From Isurus oxyrinchus (Eukaryota): a stretch of 64,000 bases of DNA. The stretch is taken from assembly GCA_026770705.1 (NCBI GenBank), contig JANJGN010000303.1, positions 1 through 64,000 on the forward strand, given 5' to 3'. The notes beneath the pieces were generated by a model. The model was not told the origin of the DNA and made no database searches. It saw nothing but the letters and a program-made list of their open reading frames with translations. Positions within the stretch are counted from its first letter, which is position 1; each line of letters begins with the position of its first letter. This document shows, in pieces, positions 30,290-31,820 of this stretch. The position numbers and the translations under genes are program-made.

Positions 30290-31820
30290 TGACACTCGGA
30301 TATGAAATTTGATAATCTGTATATTTGCAGCAATACATCCCCCCTCCTTTACTCGAATCTTCCAGCTACGAAGGCCGACACACCATCCGCCTCCCCCATT
30401 GACCACTGCACTAGCATGCTTACCCTCAGTGGCCGGTCCACATACCTCTTTGCCCACTCCCCTCACTCAATTCAAAGCCATTCAGATAACGATCTGCCCT
30501 CCCATCCCTGCGACCAGAGTGGACAAACTCACATCCGTCCCCAGCACACTGCTTCTGGCATGCAGCATCCCACCCACTCACCCTGTCCAAATCACACCGA
30601 AGCATCTCCGCATCCTCCACACAGCTCACCCTCCCAACCAGAACCATGTCATCTGCAAATTTGGAGACACCACACCCAGCTCCCTCATCCAAACCATTGA
30701 CACACACCCTGAATAACCTGGATGGCAGCAACGACCCCCGCAGCACTGCTCTATTCACTGCCTGCCATTCGGTAAAAGACCTGCTCATGACCGCTCCATA
30801 ATTCTTGCCTGCCAACCAGTCTTCTGTCCGTCTCTGACTCTGTCCGATTCTGCCACTGCTTCCCAAGGGCTCACCTACCAAATATTCCAAATTTAACTCC
30901 TGAATTCTCCACACCACCGATGTCAGCCCGACTGGTCAACAACTCCCTGCGTTCTCTCTAACTGCCCTTCCAAATTTTGGCGTTCCGTTAGTTAAACTCC
31001 AACCCGCAGGAACTTTACCCGACTCTATAGAATCTCAGAATATGACCACCAGTGCATCCACCACTTAAAGGGCGACCTCCCCAAGTACACTGGGACGTAG
31101 ACAATCAGGCCCCAGGATTCCACTGACCCTCAATCCCATCAATCCCTCCAACACCATTTCTGTGCCCATACTGGTTCCTTACAGCTCCTCCCTTACACTC
31201 TAGACCCTGTTCCCCAACATTTCTGGCACGTCACCCACGTCCTCCTTTGTGAAGTCAGACCAAAGGTATCCATCTAGTTGGTCAGCCACCCCTTCGTTCT
31301 CAATCATAAATCACCTGTTTCTGACTCTAAGAGACCCGCACATGTATCCACCAACCCTTCCCTCCTCACATTCTATAGAAGCATTAACAGTCAGTTGATA
31401 TTTTCCCGCAAGTCTACTCGCACTCTCCACCCTCGCCACTTAATCAATCCCCTTATCTTCCCCTGATGAACTCTAAAGTGCTCCCAATCCTCATGTCTTT
31501 CCCTTTTTCCCCTCCAACTTGTCTGCCGCTTCCTTGGATCCAACACTATCCCCAATTTCCCCTGTAAGCCATGGTTCAGACACCATTGCTATCTTCCCCT
31601 TGCGCCAGACATGAACAAACAAGTGTTGAAGCCACAAAGCGCCCCACAAATATCCGTCACTGCCCATCCACCGTCATCCCTCCAAACAACGTTTCCAAAT
31701 CCAGCATAGGCAGGCCGCAAACCAAACCATCGCAGTCTTCTCCATTATGTTTCAGGACCCTTGTTTCAGAACAAAATACGTCACTCTCTGTCCTCATGAA
31801 AAATTAACCATGTCATAGTC
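30290..31820 (-). mobile_element. CR1/HER1-type LINE RT fragment, A->G hypermutated on its sense strand
   Basis: ORF 30426-30917: EWQAV..GSLLP..LFRVCVNGLDEGAGCGVSKFADD..EDAEMLRCDLDR. Confidence 0.85.

What the first reader, a model, noticed from the sequence alone, without database searches (positions are those of the whole stretch)
30290..31820. LINE copy with strand-specific A->G hypermutation: possible genomic fossil of ADAR hyper-editing
Seen: this antisense CR1 RT fragment is very C-rich on the + strand, e.g. gagacaccacacccagctccctcatccaaaccattgacacacacc at ~30665-30710. It translates as VCVNGLDEGAGCGVSKFADD...LRCDLDRVSGW...RRDGR. Established: CR1 RTs read roughly IYINDLDEG..C.ISKFADD...LQ.DLD.L.EW (recalled family consensus, not computed here). 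Most differences (I->V, Y->C, D->G, K->G/R, Q->R, E->G) are A->G on the LINE sense strand, often in runs. The other CR1 copies here (17560-18510, 25210-26605) do not show this bias by eye. Inference: the LINE RNA was A-to-I hyper-edited as dsRNA and then retrotransposed, fixing the editing in germline DNA.
Basis: partly seen in the sequence, partly recalled or inferred. Interest (0 to 1): 0.75.

Follow-up and report, generated by a model that had tools for sequence, protein, structure and literature searches.

The report
Edited RNA fossilised in jumping-gene chimera
A 1.5-kb piece of a jumping gene has a third of its A letters changed to G on one strand only, in the neighbour pattern of the RNA-editing enzyme ADAR, and it is one part of a three-part insertion whose other parts are unchanged, so edited RNA was likely copied once into inherited DNA and then multiplied about twenty times along with its surroundings.

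Summary
Confirmed. Against a consensus of dispersed copies, window 30317-31831 (minus) shows A>G at 159 of 511 A versus T>C at 19 of 339 T; 19 unselected family copies show 2.0% versus 2.4%. The 5' neighbour order is U>A>C>G, ADAR's published order, with no A>T/A>C excess and no codon bias. Four empty sites show that the piece belongs to a 2,872-bp insertion: edited CR1 piece, an unedited 1.2-kb piece of another locus, and the unedited 3' tail of a second CR1 family. So the edited RNA most likely rode in by template switching and did not prime its own insertion. The 20 near-identical copies share tens of kb of flank: one event, later segmentally duplicated, not a subfamily. No independent edited copy was found (rough bound under 0.15% of 5,197 motif-bearing copies). 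Precedents: ADAR-edited retroviral DNA and edited pseudogene insertions in cultured human cells (PMC11702581). No paper on germline-fixed edited LINE copies turned up in seven searches. This scan's unchecked notes report similar fossils in at least 9 other genomes. New variant of a known kind.

The parts
30834..31831 (-). Hyper-mutated CR1 family-1 (F1) ORF2 piece, first part (consensus 1371-2374: linker and start of RT)
   Evidence: A>G at 20-48% of As in each full 100-nt bin; first change 17 nt inside the junction
30317..30834 (-). Hyper-mutated F1 ORF2 piece, second part (consensus 2563-3090, RT core) after a 188-nt internal jump; no 3' end of its own
   Evidence: last change 25 nt before the junction
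29341..30313 (+). Unedited captured piece: CA-rich tract plus a fragment of a decayed PIF/Harbinger-like transposon; the downstream flank of an older F1 insertion at a multicopy locus, inverted relative to the edited piece
   Evidence: unique part A>G 6/92, T>C 4/96; weak DDE_Tnp_4 hit (E 0.016, below cut-off) in relative L050
29123..29340 (+). 3' end (consensus 3444-3676) of the older F1 copy ('LINE-A') of that locus; not hyper-mutated
   Evidence: carries 5 of 7 locus-diagnostic changes; A>G 5/60, T>C 3/56 in the duplicates' majority, 7/60 and 2/56 in the window copy against 4 relatives
28960..29122 (-). 3' end and tail (163 bp) of a second CR1 family (F2); likely priming end of the insertion; unedited
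   Evidence: 88% to a consensus of 11 copies, one A>G and one T>C in 172 columns; same family as window 17540-18502
28955..28959 (+). Left copy of a possible degenerate 5-bp target-site duplication
   Evidence: comparison with empty sites L061-L064; short and diverged, so uncertain
31832..31836 (+). Right copy of the possible target-site duplication; target DNA resumes
1..48629 (.). Minimum extent of the segmental duplication (includes SRCR exons) that multiplied the insertion
   Evidence: 5 of 6 neighbouring stretches fetched beside three duplicates match the window at 97-99%, together spanning 1-48629

Best explanation
The segment is a CR1 ORF2 fragment in which a third of the sense-strand As read G with ADAR's 5' neighbour order, likely because ADAR hyper-edited this RNA while it was double-stranded and a CR1 reverse transcriptase likely copied it into germ-line DNA as the last template of one chimeric insertion. 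Shown: the spectrum, the context, the confinement, the three-part anatomy, the empty target site, and later duplication to at least 20 copies. Inferred order: reverse transcription primed on an F2 CR1 tail (163 nt), switched to a 1.2-kb RNA or DNA from a multicopy locus, then switched to the edited F1 RNA, skipping 188 nt once. About a third of the As carried inosine at insertion (about 34% after correcting for background and later decay). The product is a dead, non-coding fossil.
For: A>G 159/511 vs T>C 19/339. Unselected F1 copies 231/11,443 vs 207/8,777. 5' neighbour U 48/89, A 65/158, C 25/91, G 21/135, p 5e-9; the 5' effect holds after fitting the 3' base, p 5e-11; U>A>C>G is the order in Table 3 of PMC3113232 (passages). 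No excess of A>T or A>C. Codon positions 65/174, 53/169, 41/130; 129 of 167 changes are non-synonymous. The other two parts of the insertion and the right flank are unbiased. Four of four paralogous sites fetched lack the whole 2,872 bp. The edited piece shares 2 of 26 diagnostic changes of the multicopy-locus copy, the 3' piece 5 of 7, p 0.0016, so they came from different templates. The genome holds A_deamin (PF02137) exons at several loci. CR1 RNA is a heavily edited class in chicken (PMC5625713, passages). L1 machinery copies ADAR-edited RNA and two-RNA chimeras into DNA in cultured cells (PMC11702581, passages).
Against: No 3' G preference: A 61/160, G 47/134, U 36/110, C 15/69, p 0.11. 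UAG (11/24) is the lowest of the UAN triplets. PMC5625713 reports a downstream A preference outside mammals and reptiles, so this is inconclusive. No linkage of neighbouring As (p 0.41) and weak clustering. No double-stranded partner or unedited donor with the same junction among 40 scored of 1,038 candidates, nor in two extended relatives. The target-site duplication is short and degenerate, and junction microhomologies are 0-2 nt. The left flank has A>G 22/335 vs T>C 4/252 on the plus strand (the opposite strand, at background rate). Older copies in these clusters show a mild A>G lean (e.g. 38/572 vs 15/400). Over-expressed human L1 RNA showed no editing in PMC5224506 (passages). Enzyme and RNA intermediate cannot be observed directly.
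Confidence: 0.85

Rival explanations
1. Two steps: an edited F1 RNA was first reverse-transcribed somewhere else, or a ready-made chimeric donor locus with an inverted F1 pair was transcribed as a hairpin, and this insertion copied that donor. ADAR and reverse transcription are still the cause; only the assembly differs. This is a variant of the best explanation and shares its confidence.
For: The edited piece and the older copy at the donor-type locus are the same family in opposite orientation, which a hairpin donor would explain, with the loop unedited. PMC4476161 (passages) says tripartite chimeras can come from double template switching or from two events.
Against: No donor with the junction was found, and no inverted F1 copy in 17 relatives within about 3 kb or in two extended ones. 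The search was shallow.
Confidence: 0.3
2. ADAR (or another adenine deaminase) acted on the DNA strand of an RNA:DNA hybrid, during or after insertion.
For: The same neighbour order would be expected. PMC12925331 discusses ADAR acting on DNA in hybrids (passage).
Against: In target-primed reverse transcription the DNA strand of the hybrid is antisense, which would give T>C on the sense strand (established mechanism; 19/339 seen). A third of As over 1.5 kb in one DNA molecule would have to escape repair.
Confidence: 0.05
3. Error-prone DNA synthesis: polymerase-eta-type WA>WG errors, or dG:dT misincorporation by the reverse transcriptase under an unbalanced nucleotide pool.
For: TA and AA are the most changed contexts, which overlaps the WA motif (recalled).
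Against: No A>T or A>C excess (27/511 and 11/511 vs T>A 15/339 and T>G 11/339). The other parts of the same insertion are clean. AAA is not the top context (27/64 vs TAA 18/28). A 30% error rate is far above recalled polymerase rates.
Confidence: 0.04
4. A distinct G-rich CR1 subfamily, or GC-biased gene conversion or transcription-linked drift.
For: 20 copies share the Gs (127 of 167 in all 17 full-length copies). A sister subfamily exists.
Against: The copies share flanks over tens of kb. The piece follows F1 at 75 of 88 informative sites, and sites that are A in both subfamilies are G at 80/224 vs T>C 10/169. Real subfamily differences fall at third codon positions (76 of 116) and these do not. 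No strand symmetry and no spread into flanks.
Confidence: 0.02

Closest known systems
ADAR-edited processed-pseudogene insertions made by human L1 ORF2p in cultured cells (PMC11702581; passages read; Fig. S8 not seen)
   Same: Edited RNA reverse-transcribed into chromosomal DNA; clustered changes limited to the double-stranded part; the same paper reports insertions built from two RNAs.
   Different: There: somatic, experimental, edits in inverted Alu of mRNA 3' UTRs (3 of 235). Here: germ-line fixed and old, the edited RNA is LINE coding sequence, 1.5 kb at about one third of As, CR1 rather than L1.
[quoted passage not shown]
   Same: ADAR-type A-to-G changes at up to about half of As recorded in DNA through reverse transcription.
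   Different: Retroviral, short U3 or inverted-repeat regions, not an inherited non-LTR insertion.
APOBEC DNA-editing fossils in LTR retroelements (PMC4866542, passages; PMC2873906, passages)
   Same: Strand-biased, context-dependent hypermutation fossilised in genomic retroelement copies and detected against a consensus.
   Different: G-to-A from C-to-U on cDNA; A-to-G serves there as a filter or control; ADAR has 0 occurrences in the main text of PMC4866542.
Hyper-editing of CR1 RNA in transcriptomes (PMC5625713, passages)
   Same: CR1 as ADAR substrate; G depleted upstream; A favoured downstream outside mammals and reptiles.
   Different: RNA-level only, not heritable.
Template-switch chimeras of LINEs (U6/L1, U6/L2, U6/RTE, tripartite chimeras; PMC4476161, passages)
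   Same: A LINE 3' end primes and unrelated RNA is joined at the 5' side within one target site.
   Different: Here a CR1 tail, two switches plus an internal jump, and the last template is hyper-edited.

Membership tests
ADAR hyper-editing signature | A>G on one strand only, far above the other 11 classes | tested here: met
   159/511 vs T>C 19/339; next highest class C>T 25/213
ADAR hyper-editing signature | 5' neighbour order U>A>C>G | tested here: met
   order from PMC3113232 Table 3
ADAR hyper-editing signature | 3' neighbour preference (G in mammals, A in amphibians and invertebrates) | tested here: inconclusive
   p 0.11-0.12; A highest, C lowest, UAG not favoured
ADAR hyper-editing signature | Density below the 50-60% ceiling for long duplexes, over a bounded tract | tested here: met
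   31-33% seen, about 34% corrected; stops at segment junctions
ADAR hyper-editing signature | An identifiable double-stranded partner | tested here: inconclusive
   None in cis here; no donor found; an antisense read-through of the multicopy locus is a candidate only
ADAR hyper-editing signature | Editase genes in the genome | tested here: met
   28 PF02137 exon matches over cut-off on 7 contigs; ADAR not separated from ADAT1/ADAD
ADAR hyper-editing signature | Inosine in the RNA or dependence on the enzyme | not testable with these tools
   ancient event
CR1-clade LINE | ORF2 with endonuclease plus reverse transcriptase in the family consensus | tested here: met
   one open frame in the consensus of 10 copies; motif names and the clade label CR1 are recalled, no repeat library was searched; the mutated window frame has no Pfam hit
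Target-primed chimeric insertion | Empty site, LINE 3' tail at one end, single insertion point | tested here: met
Target-primed chimeric insertion | Target-site duplication | tested here: inconclusive
   about 5 bp, one mismatch on the left, empty sites 72-76% alike
Distinct CR1 subfamily | Dispersed copies with unrelated flanks and third-position-biased differences | tested here: not met
APOBEC DNA editing | G>A excess on the sense strand | tested here: not met
   22/433

The most novel reading that the evidence does not exclude
The insertion preserves both partners of the ADAR substrate. An antisense read-through from a Harbinger-like element, running into an old CR1 copy, paired with sense CR1 RNA; ADAR edited the duplex; and a third CR1's reverse transcriptase jumped from one partner to the other. 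Double-stranded RNA would then be a route by which edited, otherwise dead RNA is captured into the germ line, and such fossils would read out ancient ADAR specificity lineage by lineage.
Probability: 0.2. Interest if true: 0.8.

Novelty: new variant of a known kind. Interest (0 to 1): 0.62.

Why it matters
It is a clean case of RNA editing written into heritable DNA. It shows that hyper-edited LINE RNA, usually thought to be retained or destroyed (recalled), can still be reverse-transcribed over 1.5 kb in germ cells. That bears on whether ADAR restricts LINEs by editing, which was not seen for human L1 in PMC5224506. The empty site and the unedited parts of the same insertion give internal controls that a lone hypermutated copy lacks. 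The measured rarity (no independent copy among about 5,200) suggests a rare accident, not a major restriction route in this family. An A-to-G version of the published APOBEC fossil scans is directly runnable.

Tried and rejected
Random background: 60 stretches (600 kb); 312,501 bases lay in repeat alignments; 5,080 alignments were scored. The 27 non-window pairs at p<1e-3 were all 65-70% alike (best 6e-6 vs 2e-18 for the window) and were not followed one by one. The same stretches held only 2 F1-like hits under 20% divergence among 74, so they say little about F1.

Motif searches for independent edited copies: one search gave 1 match, an unedited sister-subfamily copy. One search gave 0. One search gave 23 matches: 12 are this locus and its duplicates (positive control, 12 of 20), 7 are sister-subfamily copies, and 4 are G/T-rich simple sequence. 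Denominator 5,197. The bound of about 7 copies (0.14%) assumes the same editing level and covers one motif only.

Three further C1 copies with extra Gs were unedited (L233-L235). L208 (p 0.003) and L223 (p 0.0004) are distant-family alignments at 21-30% divergence and were not followed.

An abundant Penelope-like family looked A/G-rich, but that is composition. Twin priming was rejected: the geometry is wrong, and a secondary primer would need an antisense template. In-place inversion of the older locus was rejected by the empty sites and the diagnostic changes.

Sequencing runs: no RNA holder listed. Five DNA runs of organism A hold 35-46% of words, and 15 runs of an organism B hold 16-18%. 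None was laid, so this is no evidence; presence in a second species stays open.

Literature searches for a germ-line edited LINE copy: (listings; only the cited papers were read, as passages). Most subscription journals are not covered. Supplements were not read; Fig. S8 of PMC11702581 may bear on the comparison. PMC10209271 (passages) only hypothesises edited RNA as a source of A-to-G DNA changes.

Full report
OBSERVATION. A search of the own genome (4.98 Gb, 5,558 contigs; 40 of 4,774 candidates scored) gave two classes of match: 20 places at 95-100% (17 full length, 3 partial, including the window) on five contigs, and 20 dispersed places at 73-74%. Ten dispersed copies give a consensus with one intact ORF2 frame. 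The labels CR1, endonuclease and reverse transcriptase rest on recalled motifs; no repeat library was searched. That the host is a cartilaginous fish is a recalled likeness only and was not tested. The window piece covers consensus 1371-2374 and 2563-3090, so it lacks both ends and 188 nt inside.

SPECTRUM. At columns where at least 7 of 10 copies agree, A>G is 159 of 511, T>C 19 of 339, G>A 22 of 433 and C>T 25 of 213. A>T (27) and A>C (11) match their mirror classes. A consensus from 17 other copies gives the same result for the duplicates' majority, 167/512 and 18/340. Of 30 loci taken in chromosome order from a motif search, 19 are F1 copies (4-7% diverged) with A>G 2.0% and T>C 2.4%; the other 11 belong to sister or older families. 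By 5' neighbour the rates are U 0.54, A 0.41, C 0.27, G 0.16 (p 5e-9), the order measured for human ADAR1 and ADAR2 (PMC3113232, Table 3). The 3' neighbour is not significant (p 0.11), and A, not G, is highest; PMC5625713 reports that pattern for amphibians and invertebrates. Changes ignore codon position and 129 of 167 alter the amino acid. Clustering is weak and neighbouring As are not linked. After correction, about 34% of As were changed at insertion. Apart from A>G, the piece differs from consensus at about 13% of sites, rich in transversions (8.4%). Old copies in similar clusters show 6-9%, so this looks regional.

ANATOMY. Flank searches found paralogous sites at 70-78%. All four fetched lack window 28960-31831, with about 5 bp of overlap that may be a decayed target-site duplication. 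Read on the minus strand, the 2,872-bp insert has three parts. (a) The edited F1 piece. (b) 1,191 bp from a multicopy locus, namely a decayed Harbinger-like fragment, a CA-rich tract and the 3' end of an older F1 insertion, in the orientation opposite to (a). (c) The last 163 bp and tail of a second CR1 family. Of 20 relatives of that locus fetched, 17 hold the older F1 copy intact and unedited. Part (b) shares 5 of 7 of their diagnostic changes and part (a) only 2 of 26 (p 0.0016), so (a) came from another copy. Parts (b) and (c) and the right flank show no bias. The left flank has A>G 22/335 vs T>C 4/252 on the plus strand, which is the opposite strand and a background-level rate.

COPIES. 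The 17 full duplicates each carry 159-169 A>G, and 127 of 167 Gs are in all 17. Five of six stretches fetched beside three of them match the window at 97-99%, together spanning window 1-48,629, which includes SRCR exons. This is one event multiplied by segmental duplication, which also excludes an assembly error. A sister subfamily does not explain the Gs.

FREQUENCY. No independent edited copy appeared in 600 kb of random sequence or in three genome-wide motif searches. The third recovered 12 of the 20 known places. Against 5,197 copies holding that motif, the rough 95% bound is about 7 copies, for one motif and this editing level only.

MECHANISM. Shown: spectrum, context, boundaries, anatomy, empty site, duplication, and editase-domain genes in the genome. 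Inferred: ADAR edited F1-sense RNA in a long duplex; an F2 tail primed reverse transcription at the target; the enzyme switched templates twice and jumped once; inosine was copied as G. A>G on the LINE-sense strand requires a sense RNA template copied in the same direction as the tail, which excludes twin priming. The duplex partner is unknown. In donor-type loci the transposase-like frame points into the older F1 copy from its 3' side, so an antisense read-through is a candidate, and part (b) has that orientation. No donor with the junction was found among 40 scored of 1,038 candidates. Whether the insertion exists in a related species was not examined.

COMPARISON. It works like ADAR hypermutation of avian retroviruses (PMC12925331) and like the edited pseudogene insertions made by L1 in cultured human cells (3 of 235; PMC11702581). 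It is the A-to-G counterpart of APOBEC fossils (PMC4866542, PMC2873906). Template-switch chimeras are known for several LINE clades (PMC4476161). Human L1 RNA was not found edited in PMC5224506. All papers were seen as passages only; no supplements were read. Seven searches listed no paper describing a germ-line-fixed, ADAR-edited LINE copy, but the library lacks most subscription journals. This scan's own unchecked notes hold 18 similar findings in at least 9 other genomes, none with 'hypermutation' in this genome, and none matching the chimeric template-switch wording. My reading was stated before that look-up, and these notes are not counted as support.

VERDICT. Real, strongly supported, and likely a fossil of ADAR-edited RNA captured as a passenger in a chimeric CR1 insertion. 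New variant of a known kind; interest 0.62.

Noticed in passing
window 43468-54578 (-): Exons of a multi-domain SRCR gene (three domains confirmed by Pfam), inside the recently duplicated unit on contigs C47, C62, C87, C114 and C303.
   Followed up: partly
window 2343-16120 vs 53515-63996: Older tandem duplicate within the window, about 49-51 kb apart, 62-71% alike.
   Followed up: no
window 22996-23463 (-): Open frame resembling a seven-transmembrane receptor remnant (recalled likeness; no Pfam hit).
   Followed up: partly
L041-L060; window 29860-30313: Multicopy locus family on many small contigs, with a decayed PIF/Harbinger-like element next to an old F1 insertion; homologues of the fragment in 5 of 60 random stretches.
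   Followed up: partly
L041, L042, L045, L050, L056 and the edited piece: Repeats in these duplicated clusters carry 6-9% transversions, against under 1% in the three closest dispersed copies, with similar transition counts: a regional, transversion-rich mutation pattern.
   Followed up: no
L150:4960-7887 and others among L095-L154: Abundant young Penelope-like family with inverted terminal parts (RT- and GIY-YIG-like frames, labels recalled); unedited in 22 alignments.
   Followed up: partly
window 31832-32600 and 28850-28959: The insertion target is a degenerate G-rich minisatellite-like tract shared with the empty-site paralogues.
   Followed up: partly
L175, L186-L190, L192, L193: A sister CR1 subfamily about 78% alike to F1, differing mostly at third codon positions.
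   Followed up: yes
L208, L223: Distant-family copies with a mild A>G lean against the F1 consensus (p 0.003 and 0.0004); probably subfamily difference.
   Followed up: no
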